A stretch of DNA of 6,068 nt from Escherichia phage ID21, in the sequence record NC_007818.1; one strand, written 5' to 3'. A model generated the notes under the pieces. That model did not search any database, was not told the DNA's origin, and was given only the letters and a program-made list of their open reading frames with translations. This document shows, piece after piece, positions 1-6,068 of this stretch (within the stretch, counting starts at the first letter, position 1; each line of letters starts with the position of its first letter). The translations under genes and the position numbers were made by a program.

Positions 1-66
1 TTGTTGACATTCCCTAAATCCTTATGAGACTCTTGCTTCAGCGAAATGACGCAGGAGTCTTTGCTT

Positions 67-435
67 ATGAAACCCGCACATCGCTTAACCCATCCGGTTC
101 TCGGTTCTTGGTTGTTTAAGTGTCCTGTTTATATCCGTTACGAACACCTTCATCATGGTCGTCTTATTAAGGTTCGTGCTGTTCGCGATTTATCCCCTCG
201 CCAACAGCTTATTGCTAACCCTAAAAATTGCTTTGACGTTGTTATTGCTGAGATTGATGTTACTTATGGCTCCCTCACTTGGTTTGATTATGAGCATGAG
301 GAATATGACGAGTTTGAGCCTGATGTTATAAAAGGCCTCGTTAACTATATTGAAATCCCTCATGTTATCCGTTCTGAGGAAGATCCTTCTGTTGATATTG
401 ATGATATGGATTGGCTTTATGAAATTGCGGAGTAA
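67..435 (+). CDS. Hypothetical protein (122 aa; 129 aa if started at in-frame ATG 46) with basic N-terminal half and strongly acidic C-terminal half, encoded in the expanded H-A intergenic region
   Basis: ORF track 46..435. AGGAG at 53-57 lies 9 nt upstream of ATG 67. Third codon positions are predominantly T (CGT, GTT, GAT, CCT, ATT), as in the capsid and scaffold genes. No similarity to any phiX174 protein I can recall. Confidence 0.45.
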   Translation: MKPAHRLTHPVLGSWLFKCPVYIRYEHLHHGRLIKVRAVRDLSPRQQLIANPKNCFDVVIAEIDVTYGSLTWFDYEHEEYDEFEPDVIKGLVNYIEIPHVIRSEEDPSVDIDDMDWLYEIAE

Positions 436-528: not shown

Positions 529-701
529 AATATTTTAGTTTGGTAGATGAACATTATGCTTACTGCCCTGATACAAGGATTTTGCACATCACTCGTAGTC
601 GTGTTTCTGACCCTCGTTATGAGCGTCGCTTTCTTACTGATGAGGAGCATTTTGCACTTTTGGATTGGTTAAAAAATCGCCCAACTTATATTAATTCTTG
701 A
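525..701 (+). CDS. Hypothetical 58-aa protein, GTG start overlapping upstream stop (GTGA)
   Basis: GGAGG at 515-519 lies 5 nt upstream of GTG 525, whose last two bases overlap the TGA stop (526-528) of the preceding peptide. T-rich third codon positions and four CGT Arg codons match the phage coding style. No in-frame ATG, so it depends on the GTG start. Stop TGA 699-701 sits inside the -35 of the gene A promoter. Confidence 0.3.
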   Translation: MKYFSLVDEHYAYCPDTRILHITRSRVSDPRYERRFLTDEEHFALLDWLKNRPTYINS

Positions 702-727
702 CAGGCCTTTAAAATACCCTCTATATT
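698..727 (+). promoter_or_regulatory. Sigma70-type promoter upstream of gene A (P_A candidate): TTGACA(698-703)-18 nt-TATATT(722-727)
   Basis: Perfect -35 hexamer and 5/6 match to TATAAT with an 18-nt spacer, about 35 nt upstream of the A start codon. phiX174 also has a promoter immediately upstream of A. Confidence 0.5.
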
Positions 728-757
728 GCCCTCATAGTTTCACTACGAGGGCTTTTT
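728..757 (+). terminator. Intrinsic-terminator-like hairpin (10-bp stem with one A.C mismatch, 5-nt loop) followed by TTTTT, between the P_A -10 and the A start codon
   Basis: GCCCTCATAG (728-737), loop TTTCA (738-742), CTACGAGGGC (743-752), then T5 (753-757). Position is analogous to a terminator after gene H (T_H) that I recall for phiX174. Confidence 0.4.
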
Positions 758-2520: not shown

Positions 2521-2979
2521 ATGTCTAATCTCGTTGCTACCGATGTTAATTTTGCTACTTCTGTTGCTGCTCTGAAGATGCTTCAGGCTTCAGCCGTTTT
2601 GGATATTACCGAAGAGGATTTTGATTTTCTGACTGGTGATAAAATTTGGATTGCTACCGACCGCAACCGCGCGCGTCGTTGTGTAGAGGCTTGCGTTTAT
2701 GGGACACTGGACTTTGTCGGGTATCCTCGCTTTCCTGCTCCTGTTGAGTTTATTGCTGCCGTCATTGCTTATTATGTTCATCCCGTTAACATTCAGACGG
2801 CCTGCCTCATCATGGAAGGCGCGGAGTTTACAGAAAATATTGTTAATGGCGTCGAGCGTCCGGTTAAAGCCGCTGAGCTCTTCGCGTATACCTTGCGTGT
2901 TAAGGCCGGATTCAAAGAGACGGTTTTAAGCGCTGAGGATAATGCTCGTCAGAAACTGCGTGCAAGTGGAGTTATGTAA
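2521..2979 (+). CDS. D: External scaffolding protein D (152 aa)
   Basis: ORF track 2521..2979. Near-identical over long stretches to recalled phiX174 gpD (RARRCVEACVYGTLDFVGYPRFPAPVEFIAAVIAYYVHPVNIQTACLIMEGAEFTEN). SD TAGGAG 2509-2514. Confidence 0.97.
   Translation: MSNLVATDVNFATSVAALKMLQASAVLDITEEDFDFLTGDKIWIATDRNRARRCVEACVYGTLDFVGYPRFPAPVEFIAAVIAYYVHPVNIQTACLIMEGAEFTENIVNGVERPVKAAELFAYTLRVKAGFKETVLSAEDNARQKLRASGVM
2699..2929 (+). CDS. E: Lysis protein E (76 aa), nested in gene D in the +1 frame
   Basis: ORF track 2699..2929. N-terminus MGHWTLSGILAFLLLLSLLLPSLLIMFIP matches the phiX174 E transmembrane domain (MVRWTLWDTLAFLLLLSLLLPSLLIMFIP, recalled), including the conserved proline. GAGGC lies upstream of the ATG. 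Confidence 0.85.
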   Translation: MGHWTLSGILAFLLLLSLLLPSLLIMFIPLTFRRPASSWKARSLQKILLMASSVRLKPLSSSRIPCVLRPDSKRRF

Positions 2980-2980
2980 T

Positions 2981-3055
2981 ATGAAAAAAGCTCGTCGTTC
3001 TCCTTCTCGTAAGAAAGGTGCTCGCCTCTGGTATGTAGGCGGTTCTCAATTTTAA
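2981..3055 (+). CDS. J: Small basic DNA-binding/packaging protein J (24 aa: MKKARRSPSRKKGARLWYVGGSQF)
   Basis: Translated manually (too short for the ORF track). ATG 2981 is 1 nt after the D stop. C-terminus GARLWYVGG matches phiX174 gpJ; the short 24-aa form suggests an alpha3-like phage. Confidence 0.85.
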   Translation: MKKARRSPSRKKGARLWYVGGSQF

Positions 3056-3060
3056 TTAAT

Positions 3061-3074
3061 GGGGCTTCGGCCCC
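3061..3074 (+). terminator. J-F intergenic hairpin GGGGC-UUCG-GCCCC (5-bp G/C stem, UUCG tetraloop); likely terminator/mRNA-stabilising element
   Basis: Perfect inverted repeat directly visible. The same GGGGCTTCGGCCCC occurs in the phiX174 J-F spacer as I recall. Followed by AAGGA SD and the F start. Confidence 0.55.
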
Positions 3075-3089
3075 TATAAGGATTCTTAA

Positions 3090-4373
3090 ATGTCAAACGT
3101 GCAAACTTCCGCTGAACGTATTCCTCACGACCTCTCTCATCTGGTTTTTGATGCAGGCAAAATTGGTCGTTTAAAGGTTGTTTCTTGGACTCCTGTTGTT
3201 GCAGGTGATTCTTTTGAGCTTGATATGATTGGCGCTATTCGCCTTTCTCCGCTTCGTCGTGGCCTTGCTGTTGACTCTCGCGTTGACCTGTTCACGTTTT
3301 ATGTTCCTCATCGTCATGTATATGGTGAGCAGTGGATTGAGTTTATGAAGCAAGGTGTTGATGCTGCTCCTTTGGCCCCTGTTCAGTGCTCTCGCGGTTG
3401 GGATAGTGCTCAGTATCTTGCTACCATTCCGTCTAGTAACCTGAAGGTTCCTAAGTTTCTTCATCAAGGTTACCTGAATATTTATAACAACTATTTTAAA
3501 GCTCCGTGGATGGATGATTTGACTTATGCCAATCCGTCCAATATGGAAGGTGAAGATGTTCGTTTTGGTGTTCGCGCATGTAACCTGAAGACTATCTGGA
3601 CTGCCCCTCTGCCGCCGGATACCGAGACCTCTCATTCTATGGAGACCGAGACTAACTCCATTGATATTATGGGTTTACAGGCTGCTTATGCTCAATTGCA
3701 TACTGAGCAGGAGCGTGATTACTTTATGACTCGTTATCGTGATATCGTTAACGAATTTGGAGGTAGCACGTCTTATGACGCGGATAATCGTCCTCTTCTG
3801 GTTATGCACTCTGAGTTTTGGGCTTCAGGCTATGACGTCGACGGCACCGACCAAAGCTCTCTCGGTCAGTTCTCCGGTCGTGTCCAGCAGACGTTTAAGC
3901 ATTCAGTACCGCGATTCTTCTGTCCTGAGCATGGCACTATGTTTACACTCGCATTGGTCCGCTTCCCGCCGACCCATGAGATGGAGATGCATTACTTAGT
4001 TGGTAAGGAAGATTTGACTTATACTGATTTGGCTTGTGACCCAGCTCTGATGGCTAACTTGCCTCCGCGTGAGGTTAATATGTCTCAGTTCTTCCATTCT
4101 GGAAGTACTAGTGCTAAGTTTAAGATCGCTGAAGGTCAGTGGTATCGTATGCAGCCTGACCGTGTTGCTCTGCCTTATAACTATCTTGATGGTTTCCCGT
4201 TCTATAGCGCGATTCCGTCTGATGATATTAAGCAGCGTGTTCTGGTTAATACTGATAACTACGATGAGGTTTTCCAGTCTATGCAACTTGCTCACTGGAA
4301 TATGCAGACTAAGTTTAACTGCACCATTTATCGTAATATGCCGACTACTCGTGATTCTATTATGACTTCTTGA
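3090..4373 (+). CDS. F: Major capsid protein F (427 aa)
   Basis: ORF track 3090..4373. Long near-identical stretches to recalled phiX174 gpF (LSPLRRGLA, YVPHRHVYGEQWI, YLNIYNNYFKAPWM, SYDADNRPLLVM, GYDVDGTDQ, PRFF.PEHGTMFTLALVRFPP, KFKIAEGQWYR, TTRDSIMTS). Confidence 0.97.
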   Translation: MSNVQTSAERIPHDLSHLVFDAGKIGRLKVVSWTPVVAGDSFELDMIGAIRLSPLRRGLAVDSRVDLFTFYVPHRHVYGEQWIEFMKQGVDAAPLAPVQCSRGWDSAQYLATIPSSNLKVPKFLHQGYLNIYNNYFKAPWMDDLTYANPSNMEGEDVRFGVRACNLKTIWTAPLPPDTETSHSMETETNSIDIMGLQAAYAQLHTEQERDYFMTRYRDIVNEFGGSTSYDADNRPLLVMHSEFWASGYDVDGTDQSSLGQFSGRVQQTFKHSVPRFFCPEHGTMFTLALVRFPPTHEMEMHYLVGKEDLTYTDLACDPALMANLPPREVNMSQFFHSGSTSAKFKIAEGQWYRMQPDRVALPYNYLDGFPFYSAIPSDDIKQRVLVNTDNYDEVFQSMQLAHWNMQTKFNCTIYRNMPTTRDSIMTS

Positions 4374-4379
4374 TTATGT

Positions 4380-4393
4380 GGGGCTTCGGCCCC
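4380..4393 (+). terminator. F-G intergenic hairpin GGGGC-UUCG-GCCCC, second copy of the J-F element
   Basis: Same 14-nt hairpin as 3061-3074, again followed by TTTAAGGATT and a start codon. Confidence 0.55.
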
Positions 4394-4409
4394 CTTTAAG
4401 GATTTGATT

Positions 4410-4955
4410 ATGTTTCAAGTTTATGTAGCTAAACATGTTGCTCCGTTCACTTCCATGAATCGTGCATTTTCTATCTCTCCTGCTGCTGACCCGCAGGTTG
4501 TTAACTCTGGCGAGATTGTTGCTGGTCGTTCTACCTTCCGCATTGCTTCTTCTATTGATTCAGCTTCCAATGGTAATGGTTTTGCATTCGTTCAGATGAT
4601 GGACCCTAACTCTCCTGATTCTCAGCAGGTCTTCTCTGTTGCTGCGTCACTGTCTTTTAGCGTTGACTCGAATTATGTCCCTTGCGTTGTTCGCTTTGAG
4701 AGTAGTGCTGCTCAGCCTGGTCGATTCGCTATTTCTAAGGCTGATTTTATTCCGGTTGAGGCCTCCGCCCTCTCTGCGCGCGCGCTTAGTGTTCGTGATT
4801 GTGTTACTGTTGATGTTAAGCCTCGCACTGAAGGTAATAACGTCTTTGTTGGTCTATTCCTGTCTTCTGCTGCCGCTAATGCTGGTAATGTTACTGGTGT
4901 TATTTCGATGGCTCAGGTTGACCATGAAGTTACAGCTTTGCAGCCTCTTAAATAA
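4410..4955 (+). CDS. G: Major spike protein G (181 aa)
   Basis: ORF track 4404..4955 (TTG); the ATG at 4410 with AAGGA 7 nt upstream is preferred. MFQ start, CVVRFESS, RDCVTVDVKPRTEGNNVFVG and C-terminal LQPLK match recalled phiX174 gpG. Confidence 0.9.
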   Translation: MFQVYVAKHVAPFTSMNRAFSISPAADPQVVNSGEIVAGRSTFRIASSIDSASNGNGFAFVQMMDPNSPDSQQVFSVAASLSFSVDSNYVPCVVRFESSAAQPGRFAISKADFIPVEASALSARALSVRDCVTVDVKPRTEGNNVFVGLFLSSAAANAGNVTGVISMAQVDHEVTALQPLK

Positions 4956-5090
4956 AAGGCCGCCGCACTCCCGGTTATATGCCTGCCCAGTGTAGGGCGG
5001 ACCGAGCCGTACGGAGATACCCGATAAACTAGGAACGTGGAAGGCGTTAGCCGCCTTCCCTCCTGCTAAGCCCAAAGGAGACTTTCAGCT
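4956..5090 (+). other. 135-nt GC-rich structured G-H intergenic region; candidate complementary (-) strand origin of the DnaG-primase-dependent type
   Basis: No credible ORF. Several stem-loops are visible (6-bp stem 4983-5000; CCGTACGG palindrome 5007-5014; perfect 8-bp stem 5039-5059). A CTG at 5063-5065 sits just 3' of the strongest hairpin. GC-rich unlike the T-rich coding regions. Confidence 0.4.
5039..5059 (+). other. Perfect hairpin GGAAGGCG-TTAGC-CGCCTTCC (8-bp stem, 5-nt loop)
   Basis: Inverted repeat read directly from the sequence. Not followed by a T-run, so not a canonical intrinsic terminator. Confidence 0.5.
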
Positions 5091-6068
5091 ATGTTAGGTG
5101 CCGTTGTAGGTGGTATTGCTTCAGCCTTAGCCGGTGGAGCCGCCTCTAAGTTATTTGGTGGCAAGTCTGCCCCTCAAGCCGCTACAGAGTCCGCTGGTCT
5201 ATCTAACGGTCAAGGTGTTATTGGTATGGACCAAGATGCCGGTATTCAGTCTGCTATTCAGGGTTCAAATGTCCCAAATGGTCAGATTCCTGCTCCTACT
5301 ACTACAGGTGGCGTTATGTCTGATGCTGGCAATATGATTAAGAATGCTGGTAAAGATTTGCTTGATGGTGTTATGACTGCTGGTAGTGACCGCGTTAAGC
5401 AGGCTTTGATTGATAAGTTAGGTGGCAATAATGCGAAGAAACAAGGACAAGCAACCCGTGATTACTTGGCTGCGGCCTTCCCTGAGCTCAACGCATGGGA
5501 GCGTGCTGGAGCTGGTGCTTCCGGCGCCGGCTTGGAATCTTCCAGTCAGGACCAACAGAAAGAATTGATGCGGATGCAGTTGGACAACCAGAAAGATATT
5601 GCGAAGATGCAGATGCAGAATAATTTGCAGATTGCAGGTATTCAGTCCGCTACTTCTCGTCAAAATACGAAGGATTCTGTTTATGCTCAGAATGAGATGC
5701 TTCAGTACAATCAGCGTGAGTCGCAAGCGCGTGTTGAGTCCATCCTTGCCAACACTGACCTTACGGCTAAACAGGCCACCCATGAAATTATGAGAATGGC
5801 CCTTACTCGTGCTCAGGAGACTGGTCAACACTTAACTAACTCCCAGGTTATGGCATTGGAGAAAAAGGTTTATGCAGAAATCGGAAAAATTCATCAGGAT
5901 ACTCAAAATGCTCGTTATGGTAGCTCTCAAGTTACTGCTGCGGCGAAAGATGTTACAAATATGATTTCTGATGCTGCTGGCGGTGTTGCCGATTGGGCTT
6001 CTCAGCAGTGGAATTCTTTCTTTAAAGATGGCAAGTCTAATGGTATTCCTCTCAATACCAGAAAATAA
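5091..6068 (+). CDS. H: Minor spike / DNA pilot protein H (325 aa)
   Basis: ORF track 5091..6068. Gly/Ala-rich N-terminus MLGAVVGGIASALAGGAASKLFGG, TRDYLAAAFPELNAWERAGA, IAGIQSATSRQNTKD.VYAQNEML and RYGSS match recalled phiX174 gpH. SD AAAGGAG 5074-5080. The stop codon is the last triplet of the window. Confidence 0.93.
   Translation: MLGAVVGGIASALAGGAASKLFGGKSAPQAATESAGLSNGQGVIGMDQDAGIQSAIQGSNVPNGQIPAPTTTGGVMSDAGNMIKNAGKDLLDGVMTAGSDRVKQALIDKLGGNNAKKQGQATRDYLAAAFPELNAWERAGAGASGAGLESSSQDQQKELMRMQLDNQKDIAKMQMQNNLQIAGIQSATSRQNTKDSVYAQNEMLQYNQRESQARVESILANTDLTAKQATHEIMRMALTRAQETGQHLTNSQVMALEKKVYAEIGKIHQDTQNARYGSSQVTAAAKDVTNMISDAAGGVADWASQQWNSFFKDGKSNGIPLNTRK

What the first reader, a model, noticed from the sequence alone, without database searches (positions are those of the whole stretch)
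3061..4404. Duplicated UUCG-tetraloop hairpin plus SD module flanking gene F
GGGGCTTCGGCCCC followed within 3-5 nt by T(A/T)TAAGGATT and a start codon occurs twice (3061-3083 before F, 4380-4404 before G). An extra-stable C(UUCG)G tetraloop directly upstream of an SD is a compact unit that could both terminate or stabilise upstream message and set the translation level of the downstream capsid genes. The J-F copy is known in phiX174 (recalled). An identical second copy before G looks like a duplicated or convergent regulatory cassette.
Basis: partly seen in the sequence, partly recalled or inferred. Interest (0 to 1): 0.5.

Follow-up and report, generated by a model that had tools for sequence, protein, structure and literature searches.

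The report
Twin UUCG hairpins flanking capsid gene
The two identical GC-rich hairpins on either side of the capsid gene F are real and conserved, and are most likely this phage's versions of the leaky transcription stop and mRNA-protecting signals long known in phiX174, so the finding is sound but ordinary.

Summary
TGGGGCTTCGGCCCC occurs exactly twice, at 3060-3074 and 4379-4393. Each copy lies 5-6 nt after a stop codon (J, F). Each is followed by UAAGGA and, 7 nt later, by the ATG of F (3090) or G (4410).

The window is a complete Alphatrevirus (alpha3/WA13-like) genome. All 22 Alphatrevirus-like genomes examined carry a C(UUCG)G hairpin in both the J-F and F-G spacers. Stem sequences differ with compensatory changes, while the loop and its closing pair never vary.

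phiX174 has the identical 14-mer only in its J-F spacer. That spacer holds its terminator T_J, a rho-independent, leaky terminator; transcripts ending there are the more stable ones.

The best reading is that both copies are RNA-level elements that form and protect transcript 3' ends, stepping down mRNA for F, G and H. The U-tracts are poor, so termination is probably weak.

I found no computational support for a role in setting translation, for a DNA-level role, for concerted evolution, or for the copies acting as recombination joints.

The same hairpin followed by a ribosome-binding site recurs in at least 120 unrelated viral contigs, so it is a generic phage design.

Verdict: a new member of a known kind, of low interest.

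The parts
3053..3055 (+). Stop codon (TAA) of gene J; the hairpin starts 5 nt downstream
   Evidence: Sequence. J placed by homology to the WA13 annotation.
3061..3074 (+). Hairpin 1 in the J-F spacer: stem 3061-3065 / 3070-3074 (GGGGC/GCCCC), loop UUCG 3066-3069. Counterpart of the hairpin in the phiX174 J-F spacer, where T_J lies.
   Evidence: Identical 14-mer at phiX174 970-983. Covariation.
3077..3082 (+). Shine-Dalgarno UAAGGA for gene F; 7 nt before the ATG at 3090
   Evidence: The TAAGGATT motif occurs 4 times in the window against 0.23 expected.
3090..4373 (+). Gene F (major capsid protein), flanked by the two hairpins; stop codon TGA at 4371-4373
   Evidence: ORF list. 99% identical to WA45 gpF, Pfam PF02305.
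4380..4393 (+). Hairpin 2 in the F-G spacer: stem 4380-4384 / 4389-4393, loop UUCG 4385-4388. Occupies the position that T_F holds in phiX174 but has the sequence of hairpin 1.
   Evidence: Present in the F-G spacer of 22 of 22 Alphatrevirus-like genomes.
4397..4402 (+). Shine-Dalgarno UAAGGA for gene G; 7 nt before the ATG at 4410
   Evidence: G start placed by homology to WA13 and NC3 (98.9% amino-acid identity).

Best explanation
Both copies act in the polycistronic late mRNA, which has the same sense as the + strand. Each folds into a very stable 5-bp G-C stem capped by a C(UUCG)G tetraloop, just after the stop codon of J or F.

They are the Alphatrevirus counterparts of the phiX174 terminators T_J and T_F, and would work in two ways. 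A minority of RNA polymerases terminate just downstream of the stem. Whatever 3' ends arise there, by termination or by 3'-to-5' trimming, are protected from exonucleases.

The result is a stepwise fall in mRNA dosage, D/J > F > G > H, which fits the capsid stoichiometry. The Shine-Dalgarno sequence directly after each stem is simply the next gene's ribosome-binding site, packed into a 34-36 nt spacer.

Shown here: the structure, its position, its conservation and covariation, and its identity to the 14-mer in the phiX174 J-F spacer.

Inferred by homology: termination and stabilisation.

From the poor U-tracts, I infer that protection of 3' ends matters more than termination.
For: 1. Structure and selection. 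All 22 Alphatrevirus-like genomes have a C(TTCG)G hairpin in both spacers.
   - On 29 distinct loop-anchored 20-mers, 92% of cells pair, against 74.9% in shuffles.
   - There are 30 double-sided compensatory cells against 9.5 in shuffles (0 of 500 reach it), and slid controls score much lower.
   - G-C swaps to C-G at two stem positions and to A-U at a third.

2. RNA-specific signature.
   - The loop is UUCG in every Alphatrevirus-like copy at both sites. It is UACG, another UNCG loop, in the G4-like phages ID52 and NC6.
   - The C-G closing pair is invariant in all 29 sequences.
   - Predicted stability is -10.8 kcal/mol as RNA against -6.0 as DNA.

3. Match to a characterised element.
   - phiX174 has the identical 14-mer in its J-F spacer.
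   - T_J, T_F, T_G and T_H are placed in the J-F, F-G, G-H and H-A spacers and described as rho-independent and non-stringent.
   - T_J, T_F and T_G each block only 20-40% of transcription.
   - Read-through of T_J is 68% at 37 C, T_J-ended transcripts are the more stable ones, and disrupting T_J accelerates decay (PMC3335065).

4. Purifying selection on the spacer. The F-G spacer is 97-100% identical to NC35 and ID62 where G is 83-86% identical. Against the alpha3 group it is 72-76% where G is 60%.

5. Stoichiometric rationale for graded transcripts: PMC3003669.
Against: - No transcript data exist for this phage or, as far as I could find, for any Alphatrevirus.
- The 3' flanks are poor U-tracts: UAUAAGGA (2 U in 8) and CUUUAAGG (3 in 8). 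Neither site passes the terminator scan.
- A d'Aubenton-Carafa-type score is negative for both sites. It is also negative for phiX174 T_J.
- The hairpins start only 5-6 nt after the stop codon, so a terminating ribosome would melt the 5' arm. That would further lower co-translational termination (my inference).
- The phiX174 mutational scan reports that only 14.6% of substitutions in terminators are detrimental, so the fitness effect is probably small.
- The F-G copy is not sequence-homologous to phiX174 T_F. Its assignment rests on position and on similarity to T_J.
Confidence: 0.72

Rival explanations
1. Translation-level device. The hairpin placed 2-3 nt before the SD controls initiation on F and G. 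It could insulate the SD from upstream structure. In the F-G spacer it could instead nucleate a helix between the F stop region (4367-4373) and the G SD (4396-4402), so that only ribosomes finishing F expose the G ribosome-binding site (translational coupling, 60:60 F:G).
For: - Hairpin-to-SD and SD-to-ATG spacing is the same at both sites.
- RNAalifold draws the outer helix in most F-G spacers.
- In a 190-nt context, the G SD is predicted 0.22 unpaired in the wild type and 0.34-0.51 when the hairpin arms are mutated.
Against: - J-F shows no change in SD accessibility with or without the hairpin, and no outer helix.
- The F-G outer helix adds -2.8 kcal/mol, no better than shuffled upstream flanks (mean -2.66; 42% of shuffles do as well).
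- Both strands of that helix are already fixed by coding and SD constraints, so its conservation is uninformative. It is broken in the long-spacer variant L046.
- The hairpin-SD distance varies from 1 to 7 nt across genera.
Confidence: 0.12
2. DNA-level function in the single-stranded viral genome. The hairpins would serve as structural or recognition elements for complementary-strand priming, packaging or capsid/J-protein contacts.
For: - The genome is packaged as + strand ssDNA, in which the same hairpins can form (-6.0 and -5.8 kcal/mol).
- In G4 the F-G spacer carries the complementary-strand origin, and in phiX174 it carries the ori(-) and PriA-binding hairpin (preprint 10.64898/2026.07.25.740675).
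Against: - The origin homologue in this genome lies in the G-H spacer, not in F-G.
- Strict conservation of a UNCG loop with a C-G closing pair is a hallmark of RNA stability. By my recollection of Antao & Tinoco, not checked here, it gives no special stability in DNA.
- The same unit occurs between genes in large contigs of 30-175 kb, which are presumably dsDNA phages where an ssDNA role would not apply.
Confidence: 0.06
3. Recombination linker or concerted-evolution repeat. Identical sequences flanking F would serve as homology for swapping the F module between co-infecting phages, or would be kept identical by gene conversion, with no regulatory role of their own.
For: - The window is a mosaic. 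The block 4176-5046 differs from NC3 at only 4 positions, against about 6% elsewhere.
- In many genomes the two stems are the same type.
Against: - The mosaic breakpoints lie inside F (about 4176) and in the G-H spacer, not at either hairpin.
- In alpha3, St-1, MG945254, L047, L050 and L051 the two copies have different stems, so there is no strict concerted evolution.
- Compensatory stem changes and an invariant loop indicate selection on the fold, not on sequence identity.
Confidence: 0.04
4. Chance or a neutral leftover of a duplication, with no function.
For: The element is short (14-15 nt), and GC-rich palindromes fold by construction.
Against: - 0 of 200 shuffles reproduce the repeat.
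- It is present at both sites in 22 of 22 genomes whose G proteins are as little as 34-36% identical.
- Covariation is significant.
Confidence: 0.02

Closest known systems
phiX174 terminator T_J (J-F intergenic hairpin)
   Same: - Identical 14-nt hairpin GGGGCUUCGGCCCC.
- Same place: a few nt after the J stop codon and just upstream of the F Shine-Dalgarno sequence.
- Same transcribed strand.
- T_J is described as rho-independent and leaky, and its loss accelerates mRNA decay.
   Different: - The 3' flank here is UAUAAGGAUU, against UUACUUGAGG in phiX174: fewer U residues and the SD closer (3 nt against 7).
- No experimental data exist for this phage.
phiX174 terminator T_F (F-G intergenic region)
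   Same: Same position in the gene order, after F and before G. It is expected to play the same role in stepping down G and H transcripts.
   Different: - No sequence similarity.
- The phiX174 F-G spacer is 110 nt. It holds other hairpins that overlap the complementary-strand origin and PriA site.
- Here the spacer is 36 nt and contains only a copy of the T_J-type hairpin plus the SD.
- In this genome the origin-like element sits in the G-H spacer instead.
Intercistronic C(UUCG)G hairpins of phage mRNAs (Tuerk et al. 1988, as summarised in PMC8948821)
   Same: - C-G closed UUCG tetraloop on a short G-C stem, in intergenic regions of phage transcripts.
- Roles reported in mRNA stability.
- The exact 14-mer followed by AAGGA occurs in at least 120 unrelated IMG/VR contigs. 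In 94 of 123 occurrences it lies between the end of one ORF and the start of the next.
   Different: This is a broad structural class with several reported functions, not a homologous family. Membership says little about which function applies here.
Canonical E. coli intrinsic terminator
   Same: GC-rich stem-loop on the nascent RNA, downstream of a stop codon.
   Different: No run of U residues follows the stem. Both sites fail the criterion of at least 5 T in 8, so at best they are weak terminators.

Membership tests
Bullavirinae intercistronic terminators (phiX174 T_J/T_F type) | Lies in the J-F or F-G non-coding spacer on the transcribed (+) sense strand | tested here: met
   Spacers are 3056-3089 and 4374-4409. 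Genes were placed by homology to WA13.
Bullavirinae intercistronic terminators (phiX174 T_J/T_F type) | Stable GC-rich stem-loop in the RNA | tested here: met
   -10.8 and -10.4 kcal/mol, retained in 131-nt context folds. Covariation.
Bullavirinae intercistronic terminators (phiX174 T_J/T_F type) | Sequence and positional orthology to phiX174 T_J (J-F copy) | tested here: met
   Identical 14-mer at phiX174 970-983, between the J stop (964) and the F start (1001).
Bullavirinae intercistronic terminators (phiX174 T_J/T_F type) | Sequence orthology to phiX174 T_F (F-G copy) | tested here: not met
   The phiX174 F-G spacer (110 nt) shares no hairpin with the 36-nt spacer here. Only the position is equivalent.
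Bullavirinae intercistronic terminators (phiX174 T_J/T_F type) | Transcript 3' ends or a fall in transcription across the site; stabilisation of upstream mRNA | not testable with these tools
   Known for phiX174 only. I found no RNA data for Alphatrevirus.
Canonical rho-independent terminator | U-rich tract immediately 3' of the stem | tested here: not met
   2 and 3 U residues in the first 8 nt. Neither site is reported by the terminator scan. Tail scores are 1.48 and 1.55, against 2.23 for phiX174 T_J and 4.7 for a trp attenuator control (control sequences were recalled from memory).
C(UUCG)G extra-stable tetraloop hairpins | UUCG loop closed by a C-G pair on a Watson-Crick stem | tested here: met
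   Both copies have it. The closing pair is invariant in all 29 distinct sequences, and the loop is UUCG in 27 of them and UACG in 2.
C(UUCG)G extra-stable tetraloop hairpins | Intergenic location in phage transcripts | tested here: met
   True here. It also holds for 94 of 123 occurrences of the same 14-mer+SD in unrelated viral contigs.
Complementary-strand origin of Bullavirinae (G4 oric / phiX174 PriA site) in the F-G spacer | Homology to the G4 origin hairpins | tested here: not met
   The homologue is the G-H spacer 4956-5090 (83% mean column identity with the G4 F-G spacer). The F-G spacer here has no room for it.
Any curated Rfam family | Covariance-model match | tested here: not met
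   The only hit is a chance match (E = 0.55) to an unrelated lncRNA model on the opposite strand.

The most novel reading that the evidence does not exclude
The hairpin-plus-SD unit could be more than a packed terminator and ribosome-binding site. It might be a translational punctuation device. In the F-G spacer, the UUCG hairpin would clamp the F stop-codon region onto the G Shine-Dalgarno sequence. G would then be initiated mainly by ribosomes that have just finished F, enforcing the 1:1 F:G ratio of the capsid. The same logic might apply to the many stop-hairpin-SD-start units seen in unrelated phages.
Probability: 0.08. Interest if true: 0.4.

Novelty: new member of a known kind. Interest (0 to 1): 0.18.

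Why it matters
It matters little beyond annotation. The two hairpins mark where late transcripts of an alpha3-like microvirus are probably trimmed or ended, which helps explain graded expression of capsid genes without dedicated regulators.

The comparative result is tidy. The hairpin pair is universal in the genus Alphatrevirus, has an invariant UUCG loop, and shows compensatory stem changes.

The element is also a clean natural example of the 'stop - C(UUCG)G hairpin - SD - start' unit that recurs across many phages. That makes it useful as a compact part for synthetic operons and as a marker for annotating microvirus transcription units.

It does not open a new question.

Tried and rejected
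- **Rfam scan:** nothing relevant.
- **Metagenome scan with an F-protein profile:** returned almost only loci with F about 67-68% identical to the window's, the level of phiX174, which I read as phiX174 spike-in. One G4-like contig was also found, and no new Alphatrevirus.
- **IMG/VR scan with F:** returned about ten microvirus genomes, none closer than about 93% to the window.
- **phiX174 deep mutational scan:** the per-position table is stored in lexicographic order and cut off, so positions 965-999 (T_J) are not readable. Only the summary figure of 14.6% of terminator substitutions being detrimental could be used.
- **Papers not held:** Rokyta 2006 (PMC1347346) and Tuerk 1988 (PMC279771). 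I found no paper in the library describing terminators of alpha3-like phages.
- **Terminator scoring:** a d'Aubenton-Carafa-type score is negative for both sites, but also for phiX174 T_J and for one of my recalled control terminators. I use it only as an indication of weak U-tracts.
- **SD-insulation idea:** hairpin mutations in silico do not consistently change SD accessibility.
- **F-stop/G-SD outer helix:** predicted by RNAalifold but no better than shuffled flanks.
- **Concerted evolution of the two copies:** rejected, because several genomes carry different stems at the two sites.
- **Hairpins as recombination joints:** rejected for the one clear mosaic block, whose breakpoints lie elsewhere.

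Full report
**What the window is.** The 6068-nt window is a complete genome of an alpha3/WA13-like microvirus (genus Alphatrevirus, subfamily Bullavirinae).
- It is 93% identical overall to phage ID32. The region from the end of D through F and G into H (2900-5200) is 95.5% identical to NC3.
- No record in the phage collection or IMG/VR is closer than about 93% overall.
- By homology to the WA13 annotation and the ORF list, the genes are A 761-2245, D 2521-2979, J 2981-3055, F 3090-4373, G 4410-4955 and H 5091-6068.
- The finding therefore concerns the two short non-coding spacers either side of the capsid gene F.

**The observation.** It is correct.
- GGGGCTTCGGCCCC lies at 3061-3074 and 4380-4393. 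With the preceding T it is an exact 15-nt direct repeat.
- The repeat is found twice and only twice even with 2 mismatches allowed. Shuffles give a mean of 0.01 matches, and 0 of 200 give 2.
- Each copy starts 5-6 nt after a stop codon: J TAA at 3053-3055 and F TGA at 4371-4373.
- Each is followed after 2-3 nt by UAAGGA (3077-3082, 4397-4402). Exactly 7 nt later comes the ATG of F (3090) or G (4410).
- The two spacers align over their whole length (29 of 37 positions; score 17 against -7.5 +/- 3.4 in 5000 shuffles). The F-G spacer is the best match to the J-F spacer anywhere in the genome.
- As RNA, each copy folds into a 5-bp G-C stem with a UUCG loop at -10.8 and -10.4 kcal/mol. The hairpin survives in 131-nt context folds.

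**Comparison across relatives.** I extracted the J-F and F-G spacers from 13 annotated Alphatrevirus genomes, phiX174, G4 and G4-like phages. I added nine further Alphatrevirus-like genomes and some distant relatives, recovered through an F-protein search and contig look-ups.
- All 22 Alphatrevirus-like genomes have a C(TTCG)G hairpin in both spacers, each followed by an AAGGA- or AGGA-type SD.
- The stems differ: GGGGC, GGGCC, GGGCCC, GAGCCC, GAGGCC, GAGGGC, AGGGGC, AAGGGC and ATGGGCC.
- The UUCG loop never varies among the Alphatrevirus-like copies, and the C-G closing pair never varies in any sequence examined.
- On 29 distinct loop-anchored 20-mers, chosen by the loop motif and not by stem pairing, 92% of cells pair against 74.9% in shuffles.
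- There are 30 double-sided compensatory cells against 9.5 in shuffles (0 of 500 reach it). Registers slid by one to three columns score far lower.
- The one C(TACG)G site I left out belongs to the G4 origin hairpins.
- phiX174 carries the identical 14-mer at 970-983 in its J-F spacer, but nothing like it in its 110-nt F-G spacer.
- G4 and ID11 use a different J-F hairpin. ID52 and NC6 use GGGGGC-UACG-GCCCCC, another UNCG loop.
- A distant relative (L055, F 54% identical) has the hairpin before G but not before F.
- Within the WA13 clade the F-G spacer is 97-100% identical where G is 83-86%. Against the alpha3 group it is 72-76% where G is 60%, and the G proteins are only 34-36% identical.
- The fold is therefore under purifying selection at both sites across the genus.

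**What it most likely does.** The literature places phiX174 T_J in the J-F spacer, and the identical 14-mer is the hairpin found there.
- T_J, T_F, T_G and T_H lie in the J-F, F-G, G-H and H-A spacers. They are rho-independent and non-stringent (Logel & Jaschke, bioRxiv 10.1101/2020.03.05.979765).
- T_J, T_F and T_G each remove only 20-40% of transcription. Together they leave about 18% by the time polymerases reach H.
- Read-through of T_J is 68% at 37 C. Transcripts ending at T_J are more stable than longer ones, and disrupting T_J speeds decay of the shorter transcripts (PMC3335065).
- The graded transcripts match capsid stoichiometry: 240 D, 60 F, 60 G and 12 H (PMC3003669).
- By homology for the J-F copy, and by position plus sequence identity for the F-G copy, both elements here are best read as RNA hairpins that form and protect transcript 3' ends.

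**Why I place the function in RNA.**
- The strict conservation of a UNCG loop with a C-G closing pair points to RNA. That combination is exceptionally stable in RNA. My recollection of Antao & Tinoco, not checked here, is that it is not special in DNA.
- ViennaRNA gives -10.8 kcal/mol as RNA against -6.0 as DNA.

**Why termination is probably weak.**
- The flanks are UAUAAGGA and CUUUAAGG, with 2-3 U in 8. Neither passes the terminator scan.
- Tail scores are lower than for phiX174 T_J.
- A ribosome sitting on the stop codon 5-6 nt upstream would cover the 5' arm (my inference).
- I therefore weight 3'-end protection above termination. Both steps are inferred, not shown.

**The translation idea.**
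- Mutating either arm, both arms or the loop in silico does not change SD accessibility at J-F. At F-G it raises accessibility modestly, from 0.22 to 0.34-0.51.
- That effect comes from a predicted 7-bp helix between the F stop region (4367-4373) and the G SD (4396-4402), which wraps around the hairpin.
- The helix adds -2.8 kcal/mol, no more than shuffled upstream flanks do (mean -2.66; 42% do as well).
- Both of its strands are fixed by coding and SD constraints, and it is broken in a long-spacer variant.
- I keep translational coupling only as a low-probability reading.

**Duplicated or convergent?** This cannot be settled.
- The two copies are not always the same within a genome. Alpha3, St-1, MG945254, L047, L050 and L051 differ, so there is no strict concerted evolution.
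- The window is a mosaic. Positions 4176-5046 differ from NC3 at 4 sites, against 73 sites in 3001-4175. The breakpoints lie inside F and in the G-H spacer, not at the hairpins.
- In 94 of 123 occurrences it lies between the end of one ORF and the start of another.
- This fits the long-known abundance of CUUCGG hairpins in intergenic regions of phages such as T4 (Tuerk et al. 1988, as summarised in PMC8948821).
- 'Stop - UUCG hairpin - SD - start' is thus a generic phage design, and independent origin of the second copy is plausible.

**Why the F-G spacer is so short here.**
- In G4 the F-G spacer carries the complementary-strand origin. In phiX174 it carries the ori(-) and PriA-binding hairpin, which overlaps T_F.
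- In this genome the homologue of the G4 origin lies in the G-H spacer 4956-5090.
- That spacer is 93% identical to alpha3, St-1 and phiK, although the flanking genes are 60-80% identical.
- The F-G spacer is thereby reduced to a hairpin and an SD.

**Verdict.**
- The J-F copy is identical to the hairpin in the phiX174 J-F spacer, where T_J lies.
- The F-G copy is a genus-wide second instance of the same hairpin type at the T_F position.
- I could not find it described in the papers available to me, although identical spacers have been in public alpha3-type genomes for years.
- It is a new member of a known kind, with low interest.

Noticed in passing
window 4956-5090 (G-H spacer): This GC-rich, multi-hairpin spacer is homologous to the G4 F-G spacer, which carries the annotated primer RNA and complementary-strand origin (83% mean column identity). 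It is 93% identical to alpha3, St-1 and phiK, while the flanking G and H genes are only 60% and 80% identical. It is very likely the primase-dependent complementary-strand origin of this phage.
   Followed up: partly
window 698-757: A near-consensus sigma-70 promoter (TTGACA, 18 nt, TATATT; 698-727) is followed at once by a hairpin (728-752) and UUUUU (753-757), 3 nt before the gene A start at 761. This matches the overlapping pA promoter / T_H terminator arrangement described for phiX174. Transcripts starting at this promoter would lack the full 5' arm of the hairpin and so escape termination.
   Followed up: partly
window 46-435, 439-528, 525-701: Three ORFs lie in the so-called H-A intergenic region: 129 aa, a hydrophobic 29 aa, and 58 aa, packed closely with ORF2 and ORF3 overlapping by 4 nt.
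- They are conserved across Alphatrevirus; the 58-aa ORF is 88-100% identical in amino acids, including to alpha3.
- They are called as genes in Logan contigs and in phage Lilleven.
- They are not annotated in the WA13-type RefSeq records.
- They have no PHROG match.
- In the alpha3 and St-1 records the first ORF appears split by a frameshift.
   Followed up: partly
window 4176-5046: This is a mosaic block. It covers the 3' end of F, the F-G spacer, all of G and part of the G-H spacer. It differs from phage NC3 at only 4 positions, whereas 3001-4175 differs at 73 positions. This indicates recent recombination that brought in an NC3-type G gene.
   Followed up: yes
L064-L183 (IMG/VR contigs): The exact hairpin GGGGCTTCGGCCCC followed within 1-6 nt by AAGGA occurs in at least 120 unrelated viral contigs of very different sizes, up to 175 kb. 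It mostly sits between the end of one ORF and the start of the next, so it is a recurrent intercistronic unit in phages generally.
   Followed up: partly
L055 2288-2307 (Logan SRR7122366, distant Bullavirinae-like phage): In this phage, whose F protein is only 54% identical, a GAGCCC-UUCG-GGGCUC hairpin plus GGAG precedes the G-like gene. The J-F junction has no hairpin at all. The F-G position can therefore carry the element independently of the J-F position.
   Followed up: no
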